Origin: a virus
Length of the DNA stretch: 64,000 bases
UHGV virus genome: UHGV-1440165
Strand: one strand, 5' to 3'
The notes beneath the pieces were generated by a model. It did no database searches and was not told the DNA's origin. It saw only the letters and a program-made list of their open reading frames with translations. The translations under genes were made by a program, and so were the position numbers. Positions within the stretch are counted from its first letter, which is position 1; each line of letters begins with the position of its first letter. This document shows, in pieces, positions 3,127 to 54,901 of this stretch.

Positions 3127-3201
3127 AGACTGCTCCAATAAACAAAAGGAGCTGCTATTATAGCAGCCCCTTCATCTATTGAACAGCTTCTGAACTTAAA
3201 T

Positions 3202-4116: not shown

Positions 4117-4254
4117 AATAAAAACCCTTTCGTTATTAAGACCGTCTTCGCGGCATATTGCTGTTCTGACTGTGTAGTGAGAACATAATATACTGCATTT
4201 TTCATAGATGTAAACCACTTTTTATTGAAAAGAAGTTAACACCATCGTGTTAAA

Positions 4255-4280
4255 CAGCGCCCAGCCAAGCGGGGCGCGAA
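4255..4280 (-). terminator. GC-rich hairpin (GCGCCC...GGGCGC) downstream of 4323..5075
   Basis: Inverted repeat in intergenic region. Confidence 0.3.
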
Positions 4281-4322
4281 CTTGCGTGAATAATAACTTT
4301 CAACGTCGATATTGAAAACAAA

Positions 4323-5075
4323 TTATTCTTTGGTCAGATAGAAGTTCGGAACTTCAGGACATGCCTCTGGGAGATAGTACCCCACGACACCCTGCTTCAC
4401 TTTCTTCTCAATGTCATCACGGATTTTGCGAACAACTTCTTCCTTCTGCTCGTTGGCCATAACTTCCTCCATGGCACTGTACAGAGAATCAACGATGACG
4501 CTGACATAGTTGTGGATGGCGCGACAAGTGTTCTGGTCATAAACCATATCCGGATCGATCTTGAGATCAACCTGATCGCGTCCGACCAGCAAATGCCCGC
4601 CAGACACGTTAACAGTGTGTTTGAACACATCACTAGATTTCATGACCACGCCATCGGCCTGTGCCAGGTAGAACTCAGTTTTAGAGAAATTCTCCAGAAC
4701 TTCGGCCGGGAAATCGATTTGGATGTCACTACGGTGGCGGCCAAGGTAGTACAGGCAATGTGATAACTTGGAACACGCTTCTTGCGCCATCTTCATGTGC
4801 GCTTTGGCATGTTCATAACCAGCCAGGACGTCGCGGACAAAGTCTGCAACTTCTTGGTTTCCGTATTTGACTTCGTCTTCGAAGTCCATAGCAGTAGGAC
4901 TGTCCGGCTCAATACCCAGCATGTCGAACAGGTTGCGTTCGCGAACAGATTTACCCTGGCGGTCGAAGCCGAGTTTACAACCGACTTCAAACCCGGTTGG
5001 TTCGAAGGTGGTCAGTTTCACATCAAGGCGAGCTGGTGTAAAGTCCAGCCCGAACAGACGATATAGTTGTGACAT
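4323..5075 (-). CDS. hypothetical protein (250 aa)
   Basis: Long ORF in operon context. Confidence 0.55.
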   Translation of the reverse strand: MSQLYRLFGLDFTPARLDVKLTTFEPTGFEVGCKLGFDRQGKSVRERNLFDMLGIEPDSPTAMDFEDEVKYGNQEVADFVRDVLAGYEHAKAHMKMAQEACSKLSHCLYYLGRHRSDIQIDFPAEVLENFSKTEFYLAQADGVVMKSSDVFKHTVNVSGGHLLVGRDQVDLKIDPDMVYDQNTCRAIHNYVSVIVDSLYSAMEEVMANEQKEEVVRKIRDDIEKKVKQGVVGYYLPEACPEVPNFYLTKE

Positions 5076-5139
5076 GTTATAGCCTCATGGTTGAAGGAAT
5101 TACCCGTTCGCGAATTATCACTCGGAACGGGTTATAGAA

Positions 5140-5841
5140 CTATTTCTTGTGTACTCGGCGGGCATCTTTCCAGACAGACATCTGGCTCTGTTTCTGGAAG
5201 CGAGCGGTGCGCATGAAGAGCACGATTTCCCAGTATTGTGGCTCAATCTCATAAAGCTGAGAGCGGAACTGATCGGCGCGGTACAGCTTCACACAGTGAT
5301 TGTACAGCGGGTGGTTGGCGAAGCGCTTCAGGGCATCCCAGGTGAGTTTCAGACGCGTCTTTGAGCGGTATGCCCGTTCGTTGCGCAACTTGATCAGATC
5401 CTCGAACACCAACAGCCTGAGCTTCGGTGGCAGGTAGTGCATGTTGAGTCCCCAGAGATAGGTCACACCCCTCTCCCCGAAGTTAATGCCGTCGCCCTTC
5501 GCAAAGTTGAAGAAGAACACCAGTGGATACATGTCCCAGTACGGCAGTTCATTCTTCGTCAGCGCATCGTATTTGAAATAGAACATACGCCCGATCATGT
5601 ACCGCACACCCTGTACCGGGCGCTTGTGATCAGCGAACGCCTGCTTCATGTGGTTTGGCGACAGGTTTGCATCCTTGGACACACGTTCCATGAACCACAC
5701 GTGCGAACGGCGGATGTTGCGCTTCGCCTCTGGACCGAAGTGTTGACGGTACTTGCGGATGTAACGCTTCACCAACTCGGGGGCGTCCATCTCGGCCGGG
5801 AACAGCAACGGATCTTCTTCGCCAGCTGTGTTCTTTGCCAT
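5140..5841 (-). CDS. hypothetical protein (233 aa), aromatic-rich
   Basis: ORF with GGAG RBS directly upstream of ATG. Confidence 0.55.
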   Translation of the reverse strand: MAKNTAGEEDPLLFPAEMDAPELVKRYIRKYRQHFGPEAKRNIRRSHVWFMERVSKDANLSPNHMKQAFADHKRPVQGVRYMIGRMFYFKYDALTKNELPYWDMYPLVFFFNFAKGDGINFGERGVTYLWGLNMHYLPPKLRLLVFEDLIKLRNERAYRSKTRLKLTWDALKRFANHPLYNHCVKLYRADQFRSQLYEIEPQYWEIVLFMRTARFQKQSQMSVWKDARRVHKK

Positions 5842-5852
5842 TTGTCAACTCC

Positions 5853-5860
5853 TATAAATA
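5853..5860 (+). promoter_or_regulatory. T4-type late promoter box TATAAATA
   Basis: Exact TATAAATA ~35 nt upstream of the GTG start at 5895; gp55 late sigma homologue encoded in window. Confidence 0.5.
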
Positions 5861-5894
5861 ACAACAGTTATCATATTTAAGTGGAGTCCTCATC

Positions 5895-6842
5895 GTGGAA
5901 GACTATCGCAATTTCATCACCCAATTGTTGCAGCGCGGGATATCGCGGAAGAACCGTTTCCGCGTCACCATCCCCCTGCCACCGGGCGTGTTCGATTCAA
6001 ACGCCACCCTGAGCAATGACGGGGATGCTTACAAATCAAGTTCATCATCGTTTGGCGACTTGTTTAAGGAGTCAGCCCGTATTGTAAACGCTTTCTTTGG
6101 AGGGACAAACCAGACGGCGCGTTCCCTTCAGATGATGTGTATGGTCGCAGGTCTGCCGGGGGTCGGCGTCGACACCACCCCAATGAACAACAACGGCAAC
6201 CACATCAAGATGCCAAACAACAAGTCCAACGTCGATCTGGATCTAACATTCCTCATTGCCAACGACTACTATGAGAAGTCGGTCATGGACAAATGGAAGA
6301 ATCTGATCTTTGATCCGTACACAACTAAGATGGGTTATTACGAAGACTTCGTGACTGACATCTGTATCGAGCAGATGGATACAGAAGACCAGGTTGTGCA
6401 CCGGGTGTACATCGTGGAGGCGCATCCGATCAACTTCAGCACGATTGACCTTGACAAGGGTGCAACAGATCAGTTCAACCAATACAACATCACATTCTCT
6501 TACAACAAAGTGTTATCGGAGACTGAGTATGAAACACGCAGCCTTGCCAGCGATTTTCTTCCTCTTGGGATTACTGACGCTCTTGCCAGTGGAGATTGGG
6601 AAACTGCGGCCTCAAAAGCCGGGCAACTTTATCGCAAGGTGAAGGAAGGCAACTTCACAGGGGAAGCGCTCCTGGCGTACAAGCAGCTGGATCAACTGGT
6701 AAACAATCTGGCTGGCATCAGCCTGCAGGACTTCGAGCGCATCTCTATCGGCATCTCTCGTGACATCATGGGGAATGATAACCTGACTGCAGCTGAAAAG
6801 ACCAGCCTGCTGGGTATCCTCCAGGACGTCATGGGCAAATAA
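5895..6842 (+). CDS. baseplate tail-tube family protein (gp48/gp54-like)
   Basis: N-terminal NRFRVTIP resembles gp19/gp54 family NLFQVEIS; GTG start with AAGTGGAG RBS; late promoter upstream; terminator downstream. Confidence 0.45.
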   Translation: MEDYRNFITQLLQRGISRKNRFRVTIPLPPGVFDSNATLSNDGDAYKSSSSSFGDLFKESARIVNAFFGGTNQTARSLQMMCMVAGLPGVGVDTTPMNNNGNHIKMPNNKSNVDLDLTFLIANDYYEKSVMDKWKNLIFDPYTTKMGYYEDFVTDICIEQMDTEDQVVHRVYIVEAHPINFSTIDLDKGATDQFNQYNITFSYNKVLSETEYETRSLASDFLPLGITDALASGDWETAASKAGQLYRKVKEGNFTGEALLAYKQLDQLVNNLAGISLQDFERISIGISRDIMGNDNLTAAEKTSLLGILQDVMGK

Positions 6843-6864
6843 AAAGCCCCTCACGGGGCTTTGT
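6841..6864. terminator. bidirectional rho-independent terminator (AGCCCCTCACGGGGCT)
   Basis: Perfect stem flanked by A-run and T-run; stop codon of the minus-strand membrane gene lies inside the loop. Confidence 0.65.
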
Positions 6865-7255
6865 CTTCTGAATACTTCTTGTATTCTTGTCTAGTTCCGT
6901 ACTCCACTATGCGATACAACAGAATCACAACAGCATGGGACACCGCCAAGAAGGTGTAACCTGCCCAAGCAAGCAGAATGAAAATGATGATCGCCTTCAC
7001 AGTTCTTGCAACCCATTTGTACGGCTTCCCCAACTCTGTCATCTTCAACAACGCGCTCGGGTCGGTCTTGGCATGGGAAGAAACGCAGAGATAGAGAAAA
7101 GACAGAACTATCAGCAGAATAATATTCAGACAAGTAACTGCTACTGCGACTGTCGGGAAAGGCGTTATTCCCAATGGTGCGATAGCGGATAGAAGAGATG
7201 AGACCAACAATAAGAAGATCAGTTGTCGAAGAACAGACAAGAACAAAGTTTTCAT
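6851..7255 (-). CDS. integral membrane protein (about 4 TM segments)
   Basis: Hydrophobic segments throughout 134 aa. Confidence 0.55.
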   Translation of the reverse strand: MKTLFLSVLRQLIFLLLVSSLLSAIAPLGITPFPTVAVAVTCLNIILLIVLSFLYLCVSSHAKTDPSALLKMTELGKPYKWVARTVKAIIIFILLAWAGYTFLAVSHAVVILLYRIVEYGTRQEYKKYSEDKAP

Positions 7256-43092: not shown

Positions 43093-43466
43093 AACGAACC
43101 ACCCCCGACAGAGATCAAGAACTCTTCTTCAATGGTCGTGACCGGGCGGCGGTTGCGGGTTTCGATCATGAAGCCCCAGCCGCCGTCGGCGACGTTGCCA
43201 AAGGTCTTGACGCCAAAGGTCTTCTTCCCGTTGGAGCAGGCATAGAAGTCCAGGATGAACGGGCTACCCTGATTGTCGATCCCACGGTTTACGCCGTCCG
43301 CTACACAGCGCTCAATCATCTTCCCGTTCTTATACAGAACGAGGTCTTGGCCATACGCCTTGAAAGCATAAACGCCGTTGGTAGACACTCCGGTGATGAC
43401 AGGAGGAGCGGAAACAGCAGAGAAGGAAGCGCCCAGCAGGGCAACGGCGAGGATTAACTTTTTCAT
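43089..43466 (-). CDS. secreted protein
   Basis: Signal peptide MKKLILAVALLGASFSAVSA. Confidence 0.55.
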   Translation of the reverse strand: MKKLILAVALLGASFSAVSAPPVITGVSTNGVYAFKAYGQDLVLYKNGKMIERCVADGVNRGIDNQGSPFILDFYACSNGKKTFGVKTFGNVADGGWGFMIETRNRRPVTTIEEEFLISVGGGSL

Positions 43467-43518
43467 GATATAGTCTCTTGGTTTCAAATGGGCGGGGTAT
43501 GATTACCCCGCCGTGGGT

Positions 43519-44025
43519 TTATAGGGTAACAAGTGATACGGTAAAAACCATCGTCCCGTCAGTTGCCATTTTTCTTGAAACTGGTATGACGCGAGGCTGG
43601 CAGAATATCCATTCTTTCTCCATGGACGCCAAGTCCAGCATATCCATTTCTGATTCATCGCCTTTGTTCACAAATTTTTCTAGAGAACCATAGACATTAA
43701 GCCCCTCCGGGAGTCCGTTTCGATGTTTGTAACATATGCGGGCGACAGCTCTGGTTCCATACGATTTAGAAAATTGTTTGGCCACATGCTTCAGTTCACT
43801 GAAGCTAAGACAAGAATCCCATGTCTGAAACATGTCTCCTCGTTCAAACATCATCTCCAAACGCGCAACGTCCTCTTTAGGCAACCCGCGATAAAGTGTG
43901 GTCATCTGCGGTTCGCGTAATTCTCGCACCAGACCACGGATGGCAGGGGAAACAGTGCCAGGGCGCATGATGTGGGACTTATCATGGACGAGGTAAAATA
44001 AATCTTGAATTTGTTGATCGGTCAT
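43519..44025 (-). CDS. mono-ADP-ribosyltransferase, T4 ModA/ModB-like
   Basis: R motif TLYRGLPKE (T4 ModA PLWRGVPAE), S-x-S region DSCLSFSE, ExE-like SMEKEWIF, in ModA order and spacing. Confidence 0.55.
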   Translation of the reverse strand: MTDQQIQDLFYLVHDKSHIMRPGTVSPAIRGLVRELREPQMTTLYRGLPKEDVARLEMMFERGDMFQTWDSCLSFSELKHVAKQFSKSYGTRAVARICYKHRNGLPEGLNVYGSLEKFVNKGDESEMDMLDLASMEKEWIFCQPRVIPVSRKMATDGTMVFTVSLVTL

Positions 44026-44084
44026 GATGTATTTCCTTCATTTCAAATAGGCGGGGTAATCATACCCCACCCTAAGTTATAGAA

Positions 44085-44375: not shown

Positions 44376-44404
44376 ATAATAGGACATTCTTTAGAGGAAG
44401 TAAA
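44376..44404 (-). promoter_or_regulatory. sigma70-like early promoter TTTACT-N17-TATTAT
   Basis: Hexamers read directly; follows terminator hairpin. Confidence 0.6.
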
Positions 44405-44421
44405 CCCCTAAAAGTAAAAAT

Positions 44422-44439
44422 CCCCAACAAACGTTGGGG
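44422..44439 (-). terminator. rho-independent terminator (CCCCAACAAACGTTGGGG) followed by U-run on minus strand
   Basis: Perfect 7-bp stem. Confidence 0.6.
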
Positions 44440-44457
44440 ATTTAATAAAAGTTATGC

Positions 44458-44682
44458 CTATTTAATTTCTCGGCTTGAATTTTCCAGTTCTAATTTTCTT
44501 ATAGCGGAAATTCTACCTTCATCAGTTGCGGGAAACTCCCAAACAGCACGACGTCCGTTGTGAGTATCACAACTTGCCAGCCAGAAGAAATTAGAGGGAT
44601 CTTTAAACAAGACCAATTTAGGGTTAGCAATATTGTTCAGGCAAAATGGGGCGAGGTCAACAACGCGTGATACAGCAGACAT
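44458..44682 (-). CDS. hypothetical protein (74 aa)
   Basis: ORF flanked by duplicated terminator-promoter cassettes. Confidence 0.45.
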   Translation of the reverse strand: MSAVSRVVDLAPFCLNNIANPKLVLFKDPSNFFWLASCDTHNGRRAVWEFPATDEGRISAIRKLELENSSREIK

Positions 44683-44731
44683 AATATATACCTTCTTTCA
44701 ACGGACGGGAACGCCCCGCCCTATGAATTCA

Positions 44732-44760
44732 ATAATACGTATTTGCCTTATAGAAGTAAA
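44732..44760 (-). promoter_or_regulatory. sigma70-like early promoter TTTACT-N17-TATTAT
   Basis: Same architecture as 44376..44404. Confidence 0.6.
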
Positions 44761-44777
44761 CCCCTAAAAGTAAAAAT

Positions 44778-44795
44778 CCCCAACGTTTGTTGGGG
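44778..44795 (-). terminator. rho-independent terminator (CCCCAACGTTTGTTGGGG)
   Basis: Same stem as 44422 with reverse-complemented loop. Confidence 0.6.
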
Positions 44796-44802
44796 ACTTC
44801 TG

Positions 44803-45126
44803 TTATTTGCGCAGGGCAACCACGAATTCAGCGAGTTCACCCATGGTCGGGTCATCGCCTTTACTGCCCAGCCAGCCGTCGTCTATTTCGACCTGAAACT
44901 CTTCTTCTAGTTCCATTACGATTTCGATAGCATCCAGTTCATCGCCGCCGAGGTCTTTCTTGGTGCGGAGGCCAGCCAGTTTGTCCAGGGCGTCTTCGTT
45001 TTGAGATGCCACGTCGTCCAGCAGTTTGCGCTTGTCATCGTCGCGCCACAGATCCATATTCAGATTCTCTGTAGCGTACTGAGCCAGGTGTCGCATCACC
45101 TCAACATATGTCGGTTTACTGCTCAT
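44803..45126 (-). CDS. acyl carrier protein homologue lacking the phosphopantetheine-attachment serine
   Basis: DLGGDELDAIEIVMELEEEFQVEIDD versus E. coli ACP [26 protein letters not shown]; the DSL serine is Glu here. Confidence 0.65.
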   Translation of the reverse strand: MSSKPTYVEVMRHLAQYATENLNMDLWRDDDKRKLLDDVASQNEDALDKLAGLRTKKDLGGDELDAIEIVMELEEEFQVEIDDGWLGSKGDDPTMGELAEFVVALRK

Positions 45127-45168: not shown

Positions 45169-47397
45169 TTAGATTTTGATCTCTTTCTCTGCCAGTTCGG
45201 CAGTGACCTTGTACTTCACGCCATCCACTTCAACTTCCATGGTTGACTCTTCCAGGTCGAGGTCGGTGAACCAGCCATGGCCAGCAACGATACCATACAC
45301 CACTTTAGACAGCGTCTTGTTCAGGGCGCGGACTTCAGTGATGGCCGCCTTGGCAGCAGCGTCGATCCAGTTTTCGATCAGCTGTTTCTGTACGGCTTCA
45401 GGCACAGCAGTAATAGCCGGGGACTTCACGAATGCGTCGTATTCTTTCAGTGCATTGGCGATGAACATATCACCCGCATTGAGAGCCTTTTTATCAGCAA
45501 TCTTCTTCTGTACCGCAGCGATGGACGGCAGAGAAGACGCCCCGGCGATCTTAACGTTCAGCTCACGGCTCATGTAGACGTCCGTGGAGTCCTTCAGCTC
45601 GGTCTTCGGTGAGAAGCCATAATCGCGGATACCAACACTAGACAGGTATTCTGCGGCCGCAGCGCCGTACTGAATAGCCAGACCTTTGGCATTACCCTTA
45701 CCAACCAGGGCGTCGCGATAGAACTTCAGTACCTTCTGCTTGCCTTTCAGGGCTTCCAGGCGAACGTTGTCGGCAAAGAACTGTGCAGCACTGATGTTCT
45801 TGACCATCGCACGGTTGACCAGCGGTACGCTTTCCAGGTTCAGAATGAACACTTCCGGACCAACGAACACGTGGACGCCCATTTCGATCAACTTCTGCAC
45901 AACTTCGATATCAGCCTTGAACGGCAGGGTCTTCACATTGATGATGCCGTCTTTGACGATGGTGTAGTTGCGCCACTGGAATGTGTCCAATTCTTCGGGT
46001 AGACCGAACTTCTTCTGAGCGAATTCGGGCACCGCCACAGTTCCATGCTGGATTGTACGCACACTGATGTTCGGGCGCTCAGAGTTATAGACCAGGTCGC
46101 TGATTGAGATCACGCCCAGATCGTTAGCAGGTTCAAACGACGGTGTCCACTCTTCGTGCTCAGCCAGCTTGAGAGCGAGGGCTTTACGCTCTTCTTTGGA
46201 CTTGGCGTTCGCGATTTCTTCCGCCAGCTTGTCTTCGGTATCATCGGCTTTCTGCACAGTACCGCGACCAATGCTCTTGTAGGAGAACATCGGGTGCTTG
46301 GTGGCAACAGACACGCCAGCTTCGGCCAGGTACGTCAGCACATCAACGACAGTGGTCGCATCTTCAGCCGGAACCATATTGTAGTCGATACCGTCCACGC
46401 CGCGCAGCTGATCATCAACGATGGCCTGGGTCAGATCAACTTTGATGTTGGAGTAGTCCTGCTTGGTGAAGCAGTTGCTGTACTGTTTGATGAAGCGGAC
46501 GTCGCCCGTTTTCTTCAGCGCAGCCCACACCAGGTCGGCGTCCATGATGTGTACGCCGTAGAACGCCAGCACGTATGCTGCCTGGATGTCCGTCAGCGCA
46601 TCAAGCTGGTCGATCATGTTAGGGTTGACGACCCACAGCTTCGTGACGCTCTCAGGGATGCTCACGTGGCCGATAGGATGGTCTTCATCCGGCTGTACCG
46701 CCAGCACGGTTGCTACGCCGTTTTCAACGTAGATGGCGTGAGTGTACACCACAGGAACGTCAACACGAACCTTCGGCACCGAGGACTTCAACACGTTTTC
46801 CAGCTCAGTCTGATATTCAGTCTGTCCTTCGGCGAACACGTGAGTCGCGCCGGAACGCTCGGACATCTGGGCCAGGAGTTCGCGGTTACAGTACCAGCCG
46901 TATTCGATAAAGGTGATGTTATCGAAAACAAATGGCAAGGTTTCGGCGACGGCCAGGATTTCATTGGAGCGCCAGCAGTTGTCATAACCATCGGTCATGA
47001 ACGCCAGGTTGTTGACGTAGCCGGGTTTCTTCAGGCTACGCGCAGTATCTACCGCGAGACCCAGGGGTTCGACGAAGCCAGTGCAACCGGATGGTTGCAG
47101 GAAGCGGTCGATCAGTTTGTTCAGCTCGCTCAGGTCAGACGCAGCACTGACCTGGCGGCCAGCGAACACAGTACCAAAGTCGCCACGGGATGAGAAGTAC
47201 AGGAGGCTCACTGTGTCTTCCGGTTTCACCAGGGAAGGCAGGTTCTCCTTCAGGTGCTTACGGACTTCAGGGAGCGCCCGGTACATGGAACCGGAAATGT
47301 CCACAACGATTACATGGTTGGACGGGGCAGCAGTCGCAACCGCATTCTTAAACTCCAGGGATTCAATCATCGTTATTGCCTTCTTCAGGGTTGTCAT
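45169..47397 (-). CDS. large von Willebrand factor A (vWA) domain protein
   Basis: N-terminal MIDAS motif VVDISGSM; ~740 aa; start at MTTLKK with GGAAGGTGAGG RBS. Confidence 0.55.
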   Translation of the reverse strand: MTTLKKAITMIESLEFKNAVATAAPSNHVIVVDISGSMYRALPEVRKHLKENLPSLVKPEDTVSLLYFSSRGDFGTVFAGRQVSAASDLSELNKLIDRFLQPSGCTGFVEPLGLAVDTARSLKKPGYVNNLAFMTDGYDNCWRSNEILAVAETLPFVFDNITFIEYGWYCNRELLAQMSERSGATHVFAEGQTEYQTELENVLKSSVPKVRVDVPVVYTHAIYVENGVATVLAVQPDEDHPIGHVSIPESVTKLWVVNPNMIDQLDALTDIQAAYVLAFYGVHIMDADLVWAALKKTGDVRFIKQYSNCFTKQDYSNIKVDLTQAIVDDQLRGVDGIDYNMVPAEDATTVVDVLTYLAEAGVSVATKHPMFSYKSIGRGTVQKADDTEDKLAEEIANAKSKEERKALALKLAEHEEWTPSFEPANDLGVISISDLVYNSERPNISVRTIQHGTVAVPEFAQKKFGLPEELDTFQWRNYTIVKDGIINVKTLPFKADIEVVQKLIEMGVHVFVGPEVFILNLESVPLVNRAMVKNISAAQFFADNVRLEALKGKQKVLKFYRDALVGKGNAKGLAIQYGAAAAEYLSSVGIRDYGFSPKTELKDSTDVYMSRELNVKIAGASSLPSIAAVQKKIADKKALNAGDMFIANALKEYDAFVKSPAITAVPEAVQKQLIENWIDAAAKAAITEVRALNKTLSKVVYGIVAGHGWFTDLDLEESTMEVEVDGVKYKVTAELAEKEIKI

Positions 47398-47550
47398 CGG
47401 CCTCACCTTCCGGATTGACCAGCATGTGTTCAACGAATTCGCGATTCAGCTCAATCTGGCTCATCAGCGCATCCGTCGGAGTAAAGCGGCGGTCGAGGTT
47501 ATCGACACCCGCACGTTTAAATGGTTTGGACATTCCTCGACCTCAAAACA

Positions 47551-47574: not shown

Positions 47575-49239
47575 TTAGATTTGTGAGGCCAGTTCTGCCA
47601 CCAGAGGAGCAGCACGAACACGCGCATCTTCCAGAGTCTGAGTGTTGAAGAACTTGCCATCACGGTACACCAGTTGGTGTTGGTTGTCGGCGTCTTGCAC
47701 CTGATCAAAGGTGATGCCGTCAACCAACACTAGTTTACCCTGAGAGTCTTTAATGACTTTAAGGAAACCACGCGCAGACTTTTTAGTCCCGCCTTTGTCG
47801 GTCTTCGGCTCTTTGAAGATCTCGCGGAATTCACCGTTCACCTTACCAGCCGTCGCTTTCACTGCCGTTCCAGTACTGTCACGGGTGTTCATCTGGTAGG
47901 TGTAGGAACCAATACCGAAGACCACGTTAATGGAAGCGAAGTTCCGGCCAGCCAGACGACCAAAGATCTGGTCTTCACGTGCCAATGTGATAGAGTCACC
48001 GTAGATCAGACCGATGTGATCGTCCAACAGGAAGTGGCCAGTCTCAGTTTGAGTACCGCCAAAGATCTCCCACAGGCGCTGAATAGAGCCGACTGCTTCA
48101 GAACGGCTGATGATATTACTGTCGTCTGCCATCAGAGAGTTGATCGTACCTTCGCCTGTGATCAGGTGATAGGTGTTCGTCTCTTCGATGTGGATGACTT
48201 CGGTGCTGCTGGACACGCCGCTGATGTTCAGCATAGCGCGGTCTTTGAACCCCTCGATGCGGTAGCCGCCGACGATGTGAACTGGGTCGCCAGAGTCAGG
48301 GCGGATCACGACTTTGCCGTTGCGTGCCATGATAATGTCTTTCAGGCGAGGGAGATAGTCGTCGATGACCTGCCAATAGTCCCACGCATCCGACACAATG
48401 CTGACGATGCCATCAGGATACACGTCCTGCACCAGGCGACGGAAGGTTTCGAATTCTCCATTCTTCGTACCCATGCACATCACGGCGTGTTCGGTGGCTG
48501 CAACGGAGCCAGCAACGACATAGTCTTCATCGATATCCGCGCCGTAATACTCTTCAACGAAGTCCAGGGCAGGGTTGGTGTCAGTGCCTTTGAAGAACAC
48601 CAGATGGCCAGAACCGGAAGACGCCGCGTCATGCCATCCGCTCATACCACGGAAGGAGAAGTCGTGGCCTTGGTAATCGATGAACCAATGGTCCGGTGAC
48701 ACGCCTGTGGCGATAGCGGCTTTCACCATCAGTGCCTTGTAATGCAGGGCGATGGTGGCGTTCGTCATGGGCTTCCAGATCTCAGAGCTGAACACAGTCT
48801 CCAGATAGTTGGTCAGCCAGTAGAACTCCGGCAAGGTGTTGAACATCACATACACCGGAACGCCATACGGGCACATGGTGCCTTCGGGTAGAGCACGGAC
48901 TTCGATAGGCAGATAACCGAGGTCATGCAGGGCTTCGATATGCTCTGTGCCAACACGACCTGGACCCAGTACTTTGTTCATGCGACGGGCATACTTCTTC
49001 AACACCTTGGCCTTCGGGCGCTGGAAGAACGCTTCGTCAAACAGTTCGTGGAACCAGGTCATGAAACCCTGGATGCCCCAGACCACCACGCCGTTCTTCG
49101 GCAGGTGAGAGTTGAATAATTTGTTGGAACGCGGAGTCCCGTTGGAGAACACCAGCTCACTACCTTCAGGGAACTGATAGATGTGCCCTGATTTGTAGAA
49201 GTCGATTGCATGAATTGGGTCTAAGTGGCGCATGCTCAT
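47575..49239 (-). CDS. nicotinamide phosphoribosyltransferase-family enzyme (NadV/NAMPT-like; candidate NARP1 Namat)
   Basis: Full-length NAMPT-like sequence (554 aa) read from the translation; no single motif checked. Confidence 0.75.
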   Translation of the reverse strand: MSMRHLDPIHAIDFYKSGHIYQFPEGSELVFSNGTPRSNKLFNSHLPKNGVVVWGIQGFMTWFHELFDEAFFQRPKAKVLKKYARRMNKVLGPGRVGTEHIEALHDLGYLPIEVRALPEGTMCPYGVPVYVMFNTLPEFYWLTNYLETVFSSEIWKPMTNATIALHYKALMVKAAIATGVSPDHWFIDYQGHDFSFRGMSGWHDAASSGSGHLVFFKGTDTNPALDFVEEYYGADIDEDYVVAGSVAATEHAVMCMGTKNGEFETFRRLVQDVYPDGIVSIVSDAWDYWQVIDDYLPRLKDIIMARNGKVVIRPDSGDPVHIVGGYRIEGFKDRAMLNISGVSSSTEVIHIEETNTYHLITGEGTINSLMADDSNIISRSEAVGSIQRLWEIFGGTQTETGHFLLDDHIGLIYGDSITLAREDQIFGRLAGRNFASINVVFGIGSYTYQMNTRDSTGTAVKATAGKVNGEFREIFKEPKTDKGGTKKSARGFLKVIKDSQGKLVLVDGITFDQVQDADNQHQLVYRDGKFFNTQTLEDARVRAAPLVAELASQI

Positions 49240-50090
49240 TTTACACGTCCTGTATTTTCAGTTTTGAAAGGAAGACCGTCGGCGGTGATGTTCTCCCACC
49301 AGACAGTGTCGGCATACACAGCATCGTAGATCCCGTCGAAAACAGAGAGACCTTTGCTGAAGATGCCATGGGTAACGAAGAGCGTCATGTGCTTAGGCTT
49401 GTGCTTCTGAAGCTCTTTACCCAGCTCAACAAACGTGCGCCCACCGTCGCAGATATCATCAACCACAACCAGATAGCGGTCTTTGATCAGTTCAGGGTTT
49501 GTAATACTCACCCCAATGATTTCACCAGTCTTGGTGTCACGGTTCTTGTGTCCGTAGACAACAGGAACGCCATCCAATGACAGGCTGAGGGTTTCGGTCT
49601 TCTTCGCCGCGCCGCCGTCAGGGGCTACCAGCACAGCATTGTTCCCACGGATGAACCAGCCCAGATACTGGCGCACGATGTGATCTTGTGGGACCACATG
49701 GACGTTGTTGATCAGGGAAGACACAACATGGCTGTGAGGGTCTTTGATCGCCACGCGGTCAAAGTTCATGTTGTTGATGAACTCAGCCGCCCACTTCACG
49801 GACAGAGGCTCGCCGAAGTCGCAATGGCGGTCCTGGCGAGCATACGGGAAGTAAGGGATATACGCATGGAAGGTAGTCAGACGGTCCACGTTACCCAGGC
49901 CGCGCACGGCGTTTACCAGAAGCGCCAGCTCAATGAAGTCGGCTGATGATTTGATGTGAGCATCAATCACCACGTTCTGGACGTGACCGACAGGGATGCC
50001 AGCCTTTTGGATCTTGATATGTTCCTCACCACCTGGGAAGGTGAAGTGCTTGTAGAACACATCTTGGTCGTTCAATTTCAAACGAAACAT
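49236..50090 (-). CDS. ribose-phosphate pyrophosphokinase-family enzyme (Prs-like; candidate NARP1 Adps)
   Basis: PRPP-binding motif VVVDDICDGGRT; 284 aa; ATGA-coupled to NAMPT-like gene. Confidence 0.75.
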   Translation of the reverse strand: MFRLKLNDQDVFYKHFTFPGGEEHIKIQKAGIPVGHVQNVVIDAHIKSSADFIELALLVNAVRGLGNVDRLTTFHAYIPYFPYARQDRHCDFGEPLSVKWAAEFINNMNFDRVAIKDPHSHVVSSLINNVHVVPQDHIVRQYLGWFIRGNNAVLVAPDGGAAKKTETLSLSLDGVPVVYGHKNRDTKTGEIIGVSITNPELIKDRYLVVVDDICDGGRTFVELGKELQKHKPKHMTLFVTHGIFSKGLSVFDGIYDAVYADTVWWENITADGLPFKTENTGRVK

Positions 50091-50200
50091 AATGTAGCCT
50101 CATGGTGTATTGTACAGCCGTATTATACTGTGATGCACAAATTGAAACGCCCAGCAAATATACCGGGCGTTATTGTTATTGAAGGAGTTTGCTGATTCAG

Positions 50201-50995
50201 TTATTTGTAGGAATCGACGATGGCCTTGAACAGCGCGTCCTTCTGATCAGTTGGGATATAATTCGCCGGAGCCAGCAAGAGTCGCCTTATGTGTTCACAG
50301 CAGTCTTTCTGTTCTTCAGCGCTCATCTTATCCCAGGTGACAGCATTGAAGTAGATCCCGCCCTTGTAAGCCGCCATGCACGTCTTGGCCAGGCGAACAA
50401 CGAGTTCGGAATACAGCTCATCGGGATGCATGTATGAACGCAAATATGCTTCCACTCCAGCTTGGGCTGTGCTGTTGTGTAGATCGTTGTATCGTTCATT
50501 GTCGGTGCGAACCAAGCCAGCAACGAACCCTCGACTCGGATCTCGTGGATGTCGGAACACGAAAGACTGGCCGTGGCCTTGTAGGAATTCCGCCCCAGCC
50601 ATCTGATTTATCGTCCCTCTTTCGGAGACATACTGGAAGATGTCTATCTTCGCATCGGCGGTAGCCACCTCCAGCATCTGCTTCTCTACGACGGCGCGGT
50701 AGGCTTCCAGTTCCCACAGCTGGGAAAAGGTCTTGTCATAGGCCAGCTTCTTACCCAACTCTTCATCAAAGTTGGCGGGGTCGATAGAGGTGGAGCTATT
50801 CTTACCCCAAACGACAAAGCCGTTGTCCATCTTGAAGTGGCAGGTTATAACGCGATGGCCGCCGACTTCACGGTCTTCATAGATGACTTCGGCAATGTGG
50901 GACTTCAGAAGATCTGGGGACAGCCTCAGACCTTCTCGAACAGATTTACCCTTCAGTTCCACACCTTTGGGTTCATTACGATTGATGGTTGCCAT
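50201..50995 (-). CDS. hypothetical protein (264 aa)
   Basis: ORF. Confidence 0.5.
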   Translation of the reverse strand: MATINRNEPKGVELKGKSVREGLRLSPDLLKSHIAEVIYEDREVGGHRVITCHFKMDNGFVVWGKNSSTSIDPANFDEELGKKLAYDKTFSQLWELEAYRAVVEKQMLEVATADAKIDIFQYVSERGTINQMAGAEFLQGHGQSFVFRHPRDPSRGFVAGLVRTDNERYNDLHNSTAQAGVEAYLRSYMHPDELYSELVVRLAKTCMAAYKGGIYFNAVTWDKMSAEEQKDCCEHIRRLLLAPANYIPTDQKDALFKAIVDSYK

Positions 50996-53611: not shown

Positions 53612-54832
53612 TTATTCAGGTTTCTTCAAACGATCAAGGAGATTGACAGAGCTGCGACCGAGCACAACTTCATCACAGCGCTTCTTGTAAGCACCACTTC
53701 CGTCATAACCGACCTTACCCCGAGGCTTATCTCCCCGTTGAACGGCTTCTACGCAGCGGGTGTACTTGCTCAGTTCACAGAACATGTTCTCCAGCTGCAT
53801 GACGTTCATACACTGATCTTCCGGGGCTTCAGCCGACCAGAACTGCTCCCGGACATAACCATAGTCCCCGTAAATCGAATCCTGGTGGTCACGCAGCCAG
53901 AAGATACATTCTTCATGCGTCATGCCGTCCTTGTTCAGGAACAACAGGTCGATCCCAGCGCGGCAACCCGGTCCAGCGATAGTGAAATGGTTCTCACTGA
54001 ACGGATACTCAGGAATGTACGTGAAGTCCACCCAGATCTGATAGGCCAGGAATGGACCCAAGCCTTCGATTTCGTCGTACATGGCCTGGTAGACTTCATC
54101 CGGAGATTCGCATTCCAGCAGCCGCTCGAAGTAATCAGGGTGCTTGTTGACGAATGCCCTCAGAGAACGGATGACGCGCATCGGCATGTACGGTTCCCAA
54201 CCCTCAATGGTGTAGAAGTCCGGCTCTGCTTCAGCAATTGCCTTCGCTTCTTTATAATCCATATTCTGGGTTGAACCGTCTTTGCAGATCAGATTCACCA
54301 TCATCCCACCGAAGCGCTGCTCCTTGTGGTTGACAACCAGCTCAGGGAAAGCCAGGCATTGCTTCAGGCCGCCCGTGTTGAAAGCATTGGTGAAGACTTT
54401 GCCGCCGTTGGCCTCGAACTTCTGTAAACGTTCGCGGGTCGCGTCAAGGTTGATCTTGGCGAAGTCGGAGATCGTCATCGCGCCGCCGATAGCCTGGATC
54501 GGATCCCAGAGGTTAAACATGCGGAACAACACGCAGTTGAACATCTTATCCGGCATAGACAGCGCATCGTTGTTAACGATGTTGTTGATTAGGTTGAGAG
54601 ACTGCCTGTCGTGCTCTCTCCGGACGTTGCAGAACTTGACCTGCCGTAGTATGGCATTATCCGTCCAAGGAGCAGGAAGACGCTGGACGTCCTTCTTAAC
54701 GTGGATCTTGTATCGCTCGCTCATCCATTCGTAAGAAAGACGACGATGAAACGGACTGAGCACGGGCTTGGCGGACTTGATTTTATCTTCGCGGACACCA
54801 CAATAAGGGATGTCACGGGCTTTATCTTTCAT
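53612..54832 (-). CDS. hypothetical protein (406 aa), candidate DNA-modification enzyme
   Basis: Start MKDKAR with GAGGA RBS; family not confirmed. Confidence 0.5.
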   Translation of the reverse strand: MKDKARDIPYCGVREDKIKSAKPVLSPFHRRLSYEWMSERYKIHVKKDVQRLPAPWTDNAILRQVKFCNVRREHDRQSLNLINNIVNNDALSMPDKMFNCVLFRMFNLWDPIQAIGGAMTISDFAKINLDATRERLQKFEANGGKVFTNAFNTGGLKQCLAFPELVVNHKEQRFGGMMVNLICKDGSTQNMDYKEAKAIAEAEPDFYTIEGWEPYMPMRVIRSLRAFVNKHPDYFERLLECESPDEVYQAMYDEIEGLGPFLAYQIWVDFTYIPEYPFSENHFTIAGPGCRAGIDLLFLNKDGMTHEECIFWLRDHQDSIYGDYGYVREQFWSAEAPEDQCMNVMQLENMFCELSKYTRCVEAVQRGDKPRGKVGYDGSGAYKKRCDEVVLGRSSVNLLDRLKKPE

Positions 54833-54901
54833 GGTATCCTCACAGAATACGAAAACAGAGGCCATTATAAGCCTCTGCTGTTTAGTGAATAACTGGTTGT
54901 C

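What the first reader, a model, noticed from the sequence alone, without database searches (positions are those of the whole stretch)
47575..50090. Adjacent NAMPT-like and PRPP-synthetase-like genes: candidate NARP1 NAD+-reconstitution anti-defence pair
Two translationally coupled genes encode a full-length nicotinamide phosphoribosyltransferase homologue and a ribose-phosphate pyrophosphokinase homologue (PRPP-binding motif DDICDGGRT). Established knowledge: phage pairs of exactly this type were long annotated as NAD salvage, but were later shown to rebuild NAD+ from ADP-ribose and nicotinamide (Prs homologue Adps makes ADPR-pyrophosphate; NAMPT homologue Namat condenses it with nicotinamide), countering NAD+-depleting immunity such as Thoeris, DSR, SIR2-HerA and SEFIR. 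Whether this pair is NARP1 or true PRPP/NMN salvage cannot be decided by eye. The neighbours (vWA protein, serine-less ACP homologue, ModA-like ADP-ribosyltransferase) suggest a wider host-manipulation locus.
Basis: partly seen in the sequence, partly recalled or inferred. Interest (0 to 1): 0.8.

Follow-up and report, generated by a model that had tools for sequence, protein, structure and literature searches.

The report
Phage NAD+-rebuilding gene pair (NARP1)
Two overlapping phage genes that look like ordinary NAD-salvage enzymes belong to the already described NARP1 pathway, which rebuilds NAD+ from the fragments left by bacterial NAD+-destroying immune systems, and near-identical copies in sister phages are already catalogued, so this is a correct but ordinary finding.

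Summary
Two intact minus-strand ORFs, 49236-50090 (284 aa, Prs-like) and 47575-49239 (554 aa, Nampt-like), overlap by ATGA. The window is an Agtrevirus-like Ackermannviridae phage.

Both proteins place as NARP1 components, not housekeeping Prs/Nampt.
- The Prs-like protein scores 163 bits on a profile of four experimentally validated Adps and 71 bits on a cellular Prs profile. It fails every curated NCBIfam Prs cutoff, as validated Adps mostly do.
- It groups with Adps in 500/500 bootstraps, is Adps-type at 8/8 class-discriminating columns, and keeps the catalytic Lys (K182, equivalent to SpβL1 K162).
- The Nampt-like protein scores 378-418 bits to three validated Namats and 107-159 bits to PRPP-preferring phage Nampt.
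- It keeps the catalytic core and carries the Namat clamp motif GSYTYQMNTRD.

Orthologues 98-99% identical (SKML-39) are already listed in Osterman et al.'s tables, and a 2024 review links these Ackermannviridae genes to NAD+ reconstitution. No Ackermannviridae pair has been assayed.

The "wider host-manipulation locus" idea is not supported. The vWA and ACP-like genes persist where the pair is deleted, and the ART-like gene varies independently.

Verdict: already known, low interest.

The parts
49236..50090 (-). adps: ADP-ribose pyrophosphokinase (ADPR-PP synthetase), 284 aa, a Prs-family protein of the phage Adps class
   Evidence: The ORF is. It scores 162.7 bits on an HMM of four validated Adps and 71.1 bits on an HMM of four cellular Prs. 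The split {Prs}|{Adps + window} appears in 500/500 bootstraps, and 8/8 discriminating columns are Adps-type. It is below all NCBIfam Prs cutoffs, as SpβL1 Adps is. K182 aligns with SpβL1 K162 and E. coli K194. H119, R184, D211, D212 and T219 are conserved. dN/dS is 0.042 against SKML-39.
47575..49239 (-). namat: nicotinamide ADP-ribose transferase, 554 aa, a Nampt-family protein of the Adps-associated class
   Evidence: The ORF is. Its best PDB hits are 9w5x/9w5w at 453 bits, whose aligned sequence matches SpβL1 Namat, against about 170 bits for human or rodent NAMPT. It scores 378-418 bits to Bas63, SpβL1 and DyoEdafos Namat and 107-159 bits to KVP40-type and Aeh1 Nampt. The catalytic core is conserved: D13, Y15, F194, R197, D220, H251, R313, D315. 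dN/dS is 0.019.
49236..49239 (-). ATGA overlap of the adps stop codon (TGA) and the namat start codon (ATG)
   Evidence: Read directly from the sequence. Translational coupling is inferred.
49248..49251 (-). Shine-Dalgarno-like AGGA, 8 nt upstream of the namat ATG and inside adps
   Evidence: This is a sequence pattern only.
50098..50101 (-). Shine-Dalgarno-like GAGG, 7 nt upstream of the adps ATG
   Evidence: This is a sequence pattern only.
50122..50171 (-). Intergenic region upstream of adps. It holds the hairpin AACGCCC-N12-GGGCGTT (50171-50146), which may be the terminator of the upstream gene, followed by a perfect TATAAT (50127-50122). This may be where the pair's transcription unit starts.
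   Evidence: The consensus scan did not flag either element, so this assignment is weak and inferred.
47878..47910 (-). Codons for the Namat selectivity-clamp helix motif G444-S-Y-T-Y-Q-M-N-T-R-D454 (SCH)
   Evidence: The motif is at residues 444-454. It fits the published Namat consensus GSXΦXΦXΦTRD (PMC12774641), except that position 7 is Met rather than an aromatic residue. PRPP-preferring Nampt has GGGLLQQLDRD at this site.
49102..49128 (-). Codons for the Namat selectivity-clamp loop (SCL), residues S38-N-K-L-F-N-S-H-L46
   Evidence: The loop aligns with Bas63 SDKWFNSPL and SpβL1 TSRVED. The third residue is Lys, as in Bas63. The fourth is Leu, the commonest residue at that position among the closest homologues.
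48091..48264 (-). Codons for the lineage-specific insertion in Namat (residues 326-383), after the RPDSGDPVHIVGG strand
   Evidence: The insertion is absent from SpβL1 Namat and from Nampt, and is longer in Bas63. The site is an insertion hotspot: 44% of the 119 closest homologues carry at least 20 extra residues there, with unrelated sequences.

Best explanation
The two genes form a minimal two-gene NARP1 operon (NAD+ reconstitution pathway 1) in an Agtrevirus-like Ackermannviridae phage.

Proposed mechanism:
1. A host NAD+-depleting immune effector (SIR2, TIR or SEFIR type, as in type I Thoeris, DSR1/2 and SIR2-HerA) cleaves NAD+ into ADP-ribose and nicotinamide.
2. The first enzyme, Adps, transfers pyrophosphate from ATP to the free ribose of ADP-ribose and makes ADPR-pyrophosphate.
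3. The second enzyme, Namat, replaces that pyrophosphate with nicotinamide and regenerates NAD+ directly. Phage replication can then continue.

What is shown here:
- gene anatomy and coupling signals;
- family and sub-family membership of both proteins;
- conservation of catalytic and clamp residues;
- strong purifying selection.

What is inferred by homology to the assayed Bas63, SpβL1, FADO and DyoEdafos systems:
- the substrates (ADPR rather than ribose-5-phosphate, and ADPR-PP rather than PRPP);
- the anti-defence phenotype.

The operon has no Macro-domain phosphatase (Adpp). It is therefore predicted not to rescue the phage from aRES-type defence, which leaves ADPR-1''-phosphate.
For: 1. 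Architecture. The Prs-like gene lies immediately upstream of the Nampt-like gene on the same strand, with an ATGA overlap. This is the order seen in Bas63 genes 79-80, SpβL1 genes 190-191 and DyoEdafos genes 77 and 79.

2. Adps class.
- The window protein scores 162.7 bits on the validated-Adps HMM and 71.1 bits on the Prs HMM.
- Held-out validated Adps give 76-248 against 51-83 bits. Cellular Prs give 72-100 against 381-458 bits.
- The {Prs}|{Adps + window} split has 500/500 bootstrap support, and 8/8 discriminating columns are Adps-type, for example DPHS against DLHA.
- On TIGR01251 the window protein scores 106.5 against a cutoff of 113. SpβL1 Adps scores 106 and E. coli Prs 422.7.
- K182 aligns with SpβL1 K162, whose K162A mutation abolishes activity.

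3. Namat class.
- The window protein scores 453 bits to PDB 9w5x/9w5w and about 170 bits to NAMPT.
- It scores 378-418 bits to three validated Namats and 107-159 bits to KVP40-type and Aeh1 Nampt.
- Identity across 2,047 phage records is bimodal: 36-47% in the listed Adps-carrying phages and 24-28% in the NadV/Nampt group.
- The clamp motif is GSYTYQMNTRD, where Nampt has GGGLLQxxDRD.

4. The motif tracks an Adps partner. Two chromosomal bacterial homologues that carry the motif each sit next to an Adps-type Prs-like gene.

5. Prior cataloguing. SKML-39 (JX181829_00048 and _00049), EspM4VN and Klebsiella phage 0507-KN2-1 are listed with 'Namat within 10 genes = Yes' and/or 'Adps-associated' in Osterman et al. 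Tables S1 and S2. The window proteins are 98.2% and 98.7% identical to those of SKML-39.

6. Function is maintained. dN/dS is 0.042 for adps and 0.019 for namat, lower than the flanking genes at 0.08-0.10.
Against: - No enzyme assay or phage-deletion experiment exists for any Ackermannviridae pair in the searchable literature. Substrate specificity is therefore inferred.
- Clamp position 7 is Met, not the aromatic residue that stacks on adenine in SpβL1 (Y396). SCL position 4 is Leu, not the Trp of Bas63. Both are common natural variants: position 7 is Y 51, M 24, H 8, F 5, and the in vitro-active DyoEdafos Namat has His there. Their effect on specificity is nevertheless untested.
- Pairwise BLAST alone does not separate Adps from Prs. 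The window protein scores 63 bits to FADO Adps and 70.5 bits to E. coli Prs. The Adps assignment therefore rests on profiles and the tree, which use only four cellular Prs, three of them in or beside the actinobacterial part of Table S1.
- Curated family models (NF006629, PHROG 448) do not distinguish Namat from Nampt.
- Namat enzymes retain PRPP-dependent NMN synthesis in vitro, so some classical salvage activity is not excluded.
- The pair has been lost repeatedly in sister phages, so it is dispensable.
Confidence: 0.9

Rival explanations
1. The pair is classical NAD salvage, as the public annotation says. The first enzyme is a true ribose-phosphate pyrophosphokinase that makes PRPP. The second is a true Nampt that makes NMN. 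A host enzyme (NadR or PncC/NadD) or a phage Nmnat elsewhere in the genome then completes NAD+, as in NARP2.
For: - All public records name the proteins RPPK and NAMPT.
- The Nampt-like protein passes the NCBIfam NF006629 cutoff.
- The PRPP-loop and the catalytic residues shared with Prs are conserved.
- Namat enzymes can make NMN from PRPP in vitro.
- Only 64 kb of a genome of about 158 kb was seen, so an Nmnat gene elsewhere cannot be excluded from the window alone.
Against: - The Prs-like protein fails all curated Prs cutoffs and scores 92 bits better on the Adps profile than on the Prs profile.
- It lacks the Prs hallmarks DLHA and QIQGFF and the N-terminal helix.
- The Nampt-like protein is in the Adps-associated clade, not the Nmnat-associated one, and has the Namat clamp motif instead of GGGLLQ.
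- Osterman et al. found no phage that carries both NARP1 and NARP2. In Bas63 the pair still worked in a ΔpncC ΔnadR host.
- No Nmnat is annotated in the syntenic 64 kb of SKML-39.
Confidence: 0.05
2. The genes are decaying or non-functional remnants, carried passively in a hypervariable region.
For: Sister phages carry deletions or a fusion of the same pair: Kamild, RPN242 and Ag3. The surrounding region is rich in small variable inserts flanked by repeats.
Against: - Both ORFs are full length and collinear with their orthologues.
- All catalytic residues are intact.
- dN/dS is 0.02-0.04 against SKML-39, with dS of 0.18-0.29.
- Clusters of 114 and 116 near-identical proteins span three genera.
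Confidence: 0.01
3. The pair works as NARP1 chemistry, but its main role is to supply the phage's own NAD+ consumers rather than to counter host immunity. Such consumers could include the nearby ART-like enzyme.
For: An ART-like ORF (PHROG 832, with a YRG...SFS...EKE pattern) lies 3.5 kb downstream. Chromosomal bacterial Adps/Namat pairs sit behind NrtR-like regulators next to ADPR-handling enzymes, which suggests housekeeping ADPR recycling in some contexts.
Against: - The ART-like gene is absent from SKML-39, which keeps the pair.
- ADP-ribosyl transfer to protein releases nicotinamide but not free ADPR, so it does not supply the NARP1 substrate. This rests on established ART chemistry.
- In Bas63, ADPR-PP appeared only when a defence system was present.
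Confidence: 0.04

Closest known systems
NARP1 of Escherichia phage Bas63 / JohannRWettstein (genes 79-80; Osterman et al., 10.1101/2024.02.11.579819)
   Same: - The gene order and strand are the same, and both are two-gene operons.
- Adps is 36% identical and Namat 43-46% identical.
- The SCL loop is the same type (S-D/N-K-x-F-N-S).
- Both have an insertion at the same Namat site.
- Both have enterobacterial hosts.
   Different: - Bas63 is a Felixounavirus, so the genome backbone is different.
- In Bas63 the genes are separated by 45 nt rather than overlapping.
- Bas63 has Trp at SCL position 4 and Tyr at SCH position 7, where the window has Leu and Met.
- The Bas63 insertion is about 30 residues longer by the motif-spacing measure.
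- Bas63 was tested in vivo. The window pair has not been tested.
NARP1 of Bacillus phage SpβL1 (Adps WIT26982.1, Namat WIT26983.1; crystal structures described in PMC12774641, with best PDB matches 9w5x/9w5w)
   Same: - The catalytic residues are conserved one for one. In Adps, K162 corresponds to K182. In Namat, F189, R192, D215, R306 and D308 correspond to F194, R197, D220, R313 and D315.
- The 11-residue SCH motif is present in both.
   Different: - Identity is 33% for Adps and 43-47% for Namat.
- SpβL1 Namat has no insertion and a shorter SCL in which Arg40 stacks on adenine. The window has K40-L41-F42.
- SpβL1 is a temperate phage of a Gram-positive host.
Catalogued Ackermannviridae orthologues (Salmonella phage SKML-39 gp048/gp049, EspM4VN, Klebsiella phage 0507-KN2-1)
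   Same: - Identity to SKML-39 is 98.2% for Adps and 98.7% for Namat, with the same lengths and synteny.
- They are listed in Osterman Tables S1 and S2 as Namat-linked / Adps-associated.
- A review links these genes to NAD+ reconstitution (PMC11721090).
   Different: The differences are small indels in the flanks only. SKML-39 has two extra small genes (gp046, gp050) and lacks the ART-like ORF.
NARP2 of Vibrio phage KVP40 (Nampt + bifunctional Nmnat)
   Same: Both use a Nampt-fold enzyme and nicotinamide, and both end in NAD+.
   Different: - KVP40-type Nampt is only 28% identical (159 bits), has GGGLLQQLDRD in place of the clamp motif, and prefers PRPP.
- NARP2 has no Adps and needs an Nmnat. 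The window has an Adps, and no Nmnat is annotated in the syntenic region.
Extended NARP1 variants: NARP1-AP (with Macro-domain Adpp phosphatase; 10.64898/2026.01.28.702374) and NARP1 with RyDEP (RyR-domain cADPR glycosidase; PMC13232231)
   Same: They share the core Adps + Namat pair.
   Different: - The window operon has no third gene, because the two genes overlap.
- No Macro or RyR domain was found in the nine neighbouring proteins scanned.
- No RyDEP homologue was found in any window ORF.
Cellular class I ribose-phosphate pyrophosphokinase (E. coli Prs)
   Same: Both have the type I phosphoribosyltransferase fold, the PRPP-loop DDxxDxGxT, and the catalytic Lys, Arg and His residues.
   Different: - Identity is 24-27%.
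- The window protein scores 83 bits on PRK01259 against a cutoff of 297, where E. coli Prs scores 533.
- It lacks the N-terminal helix and the C-terminal extension.
- It has DPHS in place of DLHA and lacks QIQGFF.

Membership tests
NARP1 (Adps + Namat) | A Prs-family gene and a Nampt-family gene lie adjacent and co-oriented in one operon, within 10 genes of each other by Osterman's criterion. | tested here: met
   The ORFs at 49236-50090 and 47575-49239 are both on the minus strand and share a 4-nt ATGA overlap.
NARP1 (Adps + Namat) | The Prs-like protein falls in the Adps clade, separate from cellular Prs. | tested here: met
   It scores 162.7 bits on the HMM of four validated Adps and 71.1 bits on the HMM of four cellular Prs. 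Held-out controls behave as expected. An NJ tree gives the {Prs}|{Adps + window} split in 500/500 bootstraps, and 8/8 discriminating columns are Adps-type. Limitation: the cellular Prs outgroup is small.
NARP1 (Adps + Namat) | The Adps catalytic lysine (SpβL1 K162; K162A is inactive) and the ribose/phosphate-binding residues are conserved. | tested here: met
   K182 aligns with SpβL1 K162, Bas63 K190 and E. coli K194. H119, R184, D211, D212 and T219 are conserved.
NARP1 (Adps + Namat) | The Nampt-like protein falls in the Adps-associated Namat clade, not the Nmnat-associated Nampt clade. | tested here: met
   It scores 378-418 bits to Bas63, SpβL1 and DyoEdafos Namat and 107-159 bits to KVP40-type and Aeh1 Nampt. 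It scores 453 against about 170 bits in the PDB. The SKML-39 orthologue is labelled 'Adps-associated' in Table S2.
NARP1 (Adps + Namat) | The Namat catalytic core is conserved: SpβL1 D13, Y15, F189, R192, D215, the catalytic His, R306 and D308. | tested here: met
   D13, Y15, F194, R197, D220, H251, R313 and D315 are invariant in alignment A1.
NARP1 (Adps + Namat) | The selectivity-clamp helix motif GSXΦ1XΦ2XΦ3TRD is present, with aromatic X residues at positions 3 and 7 (PMC12774641). | tested here: met
   The motif is G444-S-Y-T-Y-Q-M-N-T-R-D454. Ten of the 11 positions fit, and position 7 is Met. Position 7 varies naturally: Y 51, M 24, H 8, F 5 among the closest homologues. It is His in DyoEdafos Namat, which is active in vitro, and Met in the Adps-associated Namats of mycobacteriophages Thibault and Constella.
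NARP1 (Adps + Namat) | The selectivity-clamp loop (SCL) provides an adenine-stacking residue, either Arg at position 3 or the residue after a Lys or Tyr. | tested here: inconclusive
   The SCL is S38-N-K40-L41-F42. Position 3 is Lys, as in Bas63, but position 4 is Leu rather than Trp. Leu is the commonest residue there among homologues. Stacking geometry cannot be judged without a ligand-bound structure.
NARP1 (Adps + Namat) | Adps pyrophosphorylates ADP-ribose, not ribose-5-phosphate. | not testable with these tools
   This needs purified protein incubated with ADPR or R5P plus ATP, followed by LC-MS.
NARP1 (Adps + Namat) | Namat prefers ADPR-PP over PRPP and makes NAD+ directly. | not testable with these tools
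   This needs a competition assay with both donors.
NARP1 (Adps + Namat) | The pair counters NAD+-depleting defence systems in vivo. | not testable with these tools
   This needs plaque assays with a deletion phage or with co-expression. No Ackermannviridae test was found in the literature.
NARP2 (Nampt + Nmnat) | The Nampt is of the PRPP-preferring, Nmnat-associated clade. | tested here: not met
   The window protein is 28% identical (159 bits) to KVP40-type Nampt, and the clamp region is GSYTYQMNTRD rather than GGGLLQQLDRD.
NARP2 (Nampt + Nmnat) | An Nmnat gene is present in the same phage genome. | tested here: inconclusive
   None is annotated in the 64 kb of SKML-39 syntenic with the window. 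Many ORFs there are 'hypothetical', and the rest of the genome was not seen.
NARP1-AP (NARP1 + Adpp) | A Macro-domain ADPR-1''-phosphate phosphatase is encoded in the operon. | tested here: not met
   The two genes overlap, and no Macro domain was found in the nine flanking proteins scanned against Pfam.
NARP1 + RyDEP | A RyR/R12-domain (PF02026) glycosidase gene lies within the operon. | tested here: not met
   There was no PF02026 hit. A phmmer search with DyoEdafos RyDEP against all 563 window ORF segments gave nothing better than E = 0.7.
Cellular ribose-phosphate diphosphokinase (Prs) | The protein reaches the curated NCBIfam score cutoffs for Prs models. | tested here: not met
   It scores 106.5 on TIGR01251 (cutoff 113), 83.2 on PRK01259 (cutoff 297) and 94.6 on PRK00934 (cutoff 296). 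E. coli Prs scores 422.7 and 532.6 on the first two.

The most novel reading that the evidence does not exclude
The Ackermannviridae Namat differs from the two best-characterised enzymes at both proposed adenine-stacking positions. It has Leu41 where Bas63 has Trp, and Met450 where SpβL1 and Bas63 have Tyr. It also carries its own 58-residue insertion. My evidence does not exclude that this lineage has a relaxed or shifted donor specificity. For example, it might use PRPP and ADPR-PP comparably, or accept another ADPR derivative. Such an enzyme would work as a dual salvage and reconstitution enzyme.
Probability: 0.06. Interest if true: 0.45.

Novelty: already known. Interest (0 to 1): 0.15.

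Why it matters
The finding matters mainly as an annotation correction. Public records, including RefSeq, still name these two proteins 'ribose-phosphate pyrophosphokinase' and 'nicotinamide phosphoribosyltransferase'. They should be read as Adps and Namat, an anti-defence module.

For people who use Ackermannviridae phages in biocontrol or therapy, presence of the pair predicts whether a phage can replicate in hosts that carry NAD+-depleting systems such as Thoeris, DSR or SIR2-HerA. Sister phages show at least three independent disruptions of it. The lack of an Adpp phosphatase predicts sensitivity to aRES-type defence.

The finding opens no new question about mechanism.

Tried and rejected
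- **Pairwise BLAST for Adps.** It does not separate Adps from Prs: the window protein scores 63 bits to FADO Adps and 70.5 bits to E. coli Prs. I replaced it with profile competition and a tree.
- **PHROG and NCBIfam family hits as discriminators.** PHROG 619 also matches E. coli Prs at 193 bits. PHROG 448 and NF006629 match KVP40-type Nampt as well as Namat. They show family membership, not sub-family membership.
- **Reading Osterman Table S1 as an 'Adps clade' list.** It is the whole Prs/Adps tree and includes cellular Prs marked 'No'. Being listed there shows only that a Namat is within 10 genes.
- **Counting clamp motifs in the stored supplement.** The sequences are truncated in the stored file, so the counts were unusable for the C-terminal motif. 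I used a fresh homologue search instead.
- **A first Biopython bootstrap run.** It timed out, so I rewrote it.
- **The 264-aa gene upstream of adps as a third component.** I dropped this idea. The gene is widespread in the family, with 453 records including Vi01 and CBA120. Whether those phages carry the pair was not checked, and the gene's function remains unknown.
- **vWA and ACP-like genes as part of the module.** Rejected, because they persist where the pair is deleted.
- **The Namat insertion as a novelty.** Rejected, because the site is a family-wide insertion hotspot.
- **Structure prediction.** I did not run it. Namat is already 43% identical to a crystal structure, Namat and Nampt folds differ by about 1 Å, and the tool returns no coordinates for judging ligand contacts.
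- **PDB sequence search for the ART-like ORF.** It found nothing significant.

Full report
**Observation.** The two reported ORFs are present on the minus strand with exactly the stated boundaries: 49236-50090 (284 aa) and 47575-49239 (554 aa).
- The stop codon of the first gene and the start codon of the second share the tetranucleotide ATGA at 49236-49239.
- Each start has a Shine-Dalgarno-like element 7-8 nt upstream: GAGG at 50101-50098 and AGGA at 49251-49248.
- The upstream 110-nt intergenic region holds a hairpin (50171-50146) and a perfect TATAAT (50127-50122). The consensus scan flagged neither, so the promoter assignment is weak.
- The motif DDICDGGRT is at residues 211-219 of the first protein.
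- Family hits are far beyond chance: Pribosyltran and Pribosyltran_N for the first protein, and NAPRTase (3e-31) and NF006629 (1e-140) for the second.

**What the window is.** The region is 93% identical in DNA to Agtrevirus-type Ackermannviridae phages such as ChubbyThor, SW16-7, SKML-39 and MK-13.
- A 5-hmdU DNA kinase gene lies nearby at 53612-54865, as expected for this family.
- The pair sits among replication and nucleotide-metabolism genes.
- The exact protein sequences already exist in public metagenome assemblies, on a contig of 159,985 bp.
- They belong to 90%-identity clusters of 114 and 116 members that span Kuttervirus, Agtrevirus and Taipeivirus. Among the members read, nearly all that carry a name are called RPPK or NAMPT, and a few are 'hypothetical'.

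**What defines NARP1.**
- Osterman et al. showed that the Bas63 pair (genes 79-80) protects against SIR2-HerA even in a ΔpncC ΔnadR host.
- They showed that the SpβL1 Prs homologue makes ADPR-pyrophosphate from ADPR + ATP and no measurable product in the PRPP-synthetase assay.
- They also showed that the Nampt homologue joins ADPR-PP to nicotinamide to give NAD+, and prefers ADPR-PP over PRPP.
- KVP40-type Nampt prefers PRPP and works with an Nmnat (NARP2). No phage was found with both pathways.
- Lan et al. (PMC12774641) solved the SpβL1 Namat structure and defined an adenine 'selectivity clamp'. It consists of a variable loop (SCL) and a conserved helix motif, GSXΦXΦXΦTRD (SCH), that Nampt lacks.
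- Two extended versions exist. One has a Macro-domain phosphatase, Adpp. The other has a RyR-domain glycosidase, RyDEP. The RyDEP study reconstituted the mycobacteriophage DyoEdafos Adps and Namat in vitro.

**Is the Prs-like protein an Adps?** Pairwise scores are not decisive, because the family is very divergent: 131 bits to Bas63, 63 to FADO and 70.5 to E. coli Prs. I therefore used three further tests.
1. *Curated Prs models.* The window protein scores 106.5 on TIGR01251 (cutoff 113) and 83 on PRK01259 (cutoff 297). SpβL1 Adps scores 106 and 74, and Bas63 Adps scores 138.5 and 101. E. coli Prs scores 423 and 533.
2. *Profile competition.* I built one HMM from four experimentally validated Adps, none from this phage family (Bas63, SpβL1, FADO, DyoEdafos). 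I built a second from four cellular Prs. The window protein scores 162.7 against 71.1 bits. Held-out validated Adps give 76-248 against 51-83 bits. Held-out cellular Prs give the reverse, 72-100 against 381-458 bits.
3. *Tree and columns.* A neighbour-joining tree separates the four Prs from the six Adps plus the window protein in 500/500 bootstraps. At all eight columns where the classes differ cleanly, the window protein has the Adps residue, for example DPHS against DLHA. It also lacks the N-terminal helix of Prs and the QIQGFF motif.

The catalytic lysine is conserved (K182, equivalent to SpβL1 K162, whose alanine mutant is inactive). So are H119, R184, D211, D212 and T219. The outgroup is small, so a larger tree would be desirable.

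**Is the Nampt-like protein a Namat?**
- The best solved structures are 9w5x/9w5w at 453 bits. Their aligned sequence matches SpβL1 Namat. Mammalian NAMPT entries score about 170 bits.
- BLASTP gives 378-418 bits to the Bas63, SpβL1 and DyoEdafos Namats. It gives 159 and 107 bits to a KVP40-species Nampt and to Aeh1 NadV.
- Across 2,047 phage records identity is bimodal: 36-47% in the listed phages that also carry Adps, and 24-28% in the NadV group.
- The catalytic core is invariant: D13, Y15, F194, R197, D220, H251, R313 and D315.
- The clamp helix reads GSYTYQMNTRD. The two Nampts have GGGLLQQLDRD and GGGLLQKCDRD.

There are two deviations from the two best-studied enzymes: Met450 where they have Tyr, and Leu41 where Bas63 has Trp. 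Both lie within family variation.
- Among the closest homologues, position 7 is Y 51, M 24, H 8, F 5, and Leu is the commonest residue at SCL position 4.
- DyoEdafos Namat, which is active in vitro, has His at position 7.
- Mycobacteriophages Thibault and Constella, labelled Adps-associated, have the identical GSYTYQMNTRD.

The 58-residue insertion (326-383) lies at a site where Bas63 has a longer insertion. At that site 44% of the 119 closest homologues carry at least 20 unrelated extra residues.

I also checked that the motif tracks an Adps partner. Two chromosomal bacterial homologues (Chitinophaga and Fibrella, about 50% identical) each sit beside a Prs-like gene that scores as Adps-type: 161-166 against 84-100 bits.

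**Is it functional and already known?**
- Against SKML-39, dN/dS is 0.042 for adps and 0.019 for namat, with dS of 0.18-0.29. The flanking genes are at 0.08-0.10.
- Osterman's Table S1 lists the SKML-39, EspM4VN and 0507-KN2-1 Prs-like proteins with 'Namat within 10 genes = Yes'. Table S2 labels the SKML-39 and EspM4VN Nampt-like proteins 'Adps-associated'.
- Table S1 is the whole Prs/Adps tree and also holds cellular Prs, so a listing there is not clade membership by itself.
- A 2024 Ackermannviridae review already connects the variable NAMPT and RPPK genes of Agtrevirus with Osterman's NAD+ reconstitution.
- I found no paper that tests an Ackermannviridae pair experimentally.

**Surroundings.** The operon is the minimal two-gene form. 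The nine flanking proteins scanned contain no Macro or RyR domain, and no window ORF resembles RyDEP. No Nmnat is annotated in the syntenic 64 kb of SKML-39.

- In Dickeya phage Kamild the pair is removed by a clean deletion of window 47892-50069. In phage RPN242 only two short fragments of the pair remain. In both phages the vWA and ACP-like genes are retained.
- Shigella phage Ag3 carries an in-frame Adps(1-222)::Namat(227-554) fusion at a shared 'FVE'. This fusion explains the chimeric PHROG 12872 hit.
- The ART-like ORF (43519-44025) is a separate insert between 57-nt direct repeats. It is absent from SKML-39, Kamild and RPN242.
- The 264-aa gene upstream of adps occurs in 453 records across the family, including Vi01 and CBA120. 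Whether those phages carry the pair was not checked.

**Mechanism and verdict.** The pair is most likely NARP1 (confidence about 0.9). Adps converts ADPR + ATP to ADPR-PP, and Namat converts ADPR-PP + nicotinamide to NAD+. This restores the pool that SIR2-, TIR- and SEFIR-type effectors deplete.
- Shown here: the anatomy, the sub-family membership of both proteins, residue conservation and purifying selection.
- Inferred by homology: the substrates and the anti-defence phenotype.
- Predicted: without Adpp, the pair should not overcome aRES.
- Rivals: classical PRPP/NMN salvage (about 0.05), decay (about 0.01), and a mainly housekeeping role (about 0.04).

The finding is correct but already known, so interest is low.

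Noticed in passing
window 47575-50183, compared with L008 (Dickeya phage Kamild), L009 (E. coli phage RPN242) and P0038 (Shigella phage Ag3): The NARP1 pair has been disrupted independently at least three times in sister phages. Kamild has a clean deletion of window 47892-50069, which leaves a 111-aa C-terminal Namat stub. RPN242 keeps only 47970-48114 and 49940-50183. Ag3 has an in-frame Adps(1-222)::Namat(227-554) fusion at a shared 'FVE' microhomology. PHROG 12872 (547 positions, named 'nicotinamide phosphoribosyl transferase') appears to be built on this chimera.
   Followed up: yes
window 43519-44025 (-), with repeats at 43463-43519 and 44022-44078: A 168-aa ORF matches PHROG 832, 'RNA polymerase ADP-ribosylase', at E = 1e-14. 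It shows an R-S-E-like pattern (YRG...SFS...EKE) but has no Pfam or PDB sequence hit. It lies between 57-nt direct repeats (74% identical) that each contain a GC-rich hairpin. It is absent from SKML-39, Kamild and RPN242 and present in 78 phage records, mostly Salmonella and Escherichia phages. The ART fold was not verified.
   Followed up: partly
window 44803-45126 (-): The acyl-carrier-protein homologue (Pfam PP-binding, 7.9e-06; PHROG 4154) has Glu at the phosphopantetheine-attachment serine: DLGGDELD against DLGADSLD in B. subtilis ACP. It therefore cannot be a conventional holo-ACP. It is retained in the three relatives examined (SKML-39, Kamild, RPN242). Its function is unknown.
   Followed up: partly
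window 44397-44799: A 283-bp insert (44444-44726), not matched in SKML-39, Kamild or RPN242, carries a 74-aa ORF (44458-44682, minus strand). It is bracketed by a 47-nt direct repeat (44397-44443 and 44753-44799, 89% identical) that contains a hairpin (AAATCCCCAAC...GTTGGGGATTT). Promoter-like hexamers (TTTACT N17 TATTAT) lie next to each copy. It looks like a small accessory-gene ('moron') cassette inserted by duplication of an intergenic regulatory element.
   Followed up: partly
L011 (Chitinophaga caseinilytica chromosome) 3321-6923; L012 (Fibrella aestuarina chromosome) 2361-7174: The closest non-Ackermannviridae homologues of the window Namat (about 50% identical, with a Namat-type clamp motif) include chromosomal Bacteroidota genes. 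Each lies next to an Adps-type Prs-like gene and directly downstream of an NrtR-like Nudix-wHTH regulator. Neighbouring genes include a Tpt1/KptA 2'-phosphotransferase or an ADP-ribosylglycohydrolase. This suggests regulated, housekeeping ADPR-to-NAD+ recycling in bacteria. Both NARP1 papers mention bacterial homologues, but the two I read do not describe the NrtR linkage.
   Followed up: partly
window 48091-48264 (Namat residues 326-383): The Namat site after the RPDSGDPVHIVGG strand is an insertion hotspot across the family. Of the 119 closest homologues, 44% carry 20-80 extra residues of unrelated sequence there. The structural role is unknown.
   Followed up: partly
window 50201-50995 (-): A 264-aa protein with an N-terminal N4 Gp49 / Sf6 gp66 family domain (Pfam PF13876, 5.6e-12) lies directly upstream of adps. 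Homologues occur in 453 phage records, and a few are annotated 'anti-CRISPR protein'. The gene is replaced by other small genes in RPN242. No evidence links it to NARP1.
   Followed up: partly
window 45169-47433 (-): The mechanical ORF call for the vWA protein starts at a TTG at 47433 (754 aa). The SKML-39 annotation and the 8-nt overlap with the conserved 56-aa ORF (47363-47533) point to the ATG at 47370 instead, giving 733 aa. Only the N-terminal 200 or so residues match vWA. The remaining 530 or so have no known domain (PHROG 2426, function unknown).
   Followed up: no
window 47575-50090, and the public records found: Public records, including RefSeq, still name these proteins 'ribose-phosphate pyrophosphokinase' and 'nicotinamide phosphoribosyltransferase'. 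Curated models (NF006629, PHROG 448 and 619) cannot tell Adps from Prs or Namat from Nampt, so automatic annotation will keep mislabelling NARP1.
   Followed up: yes
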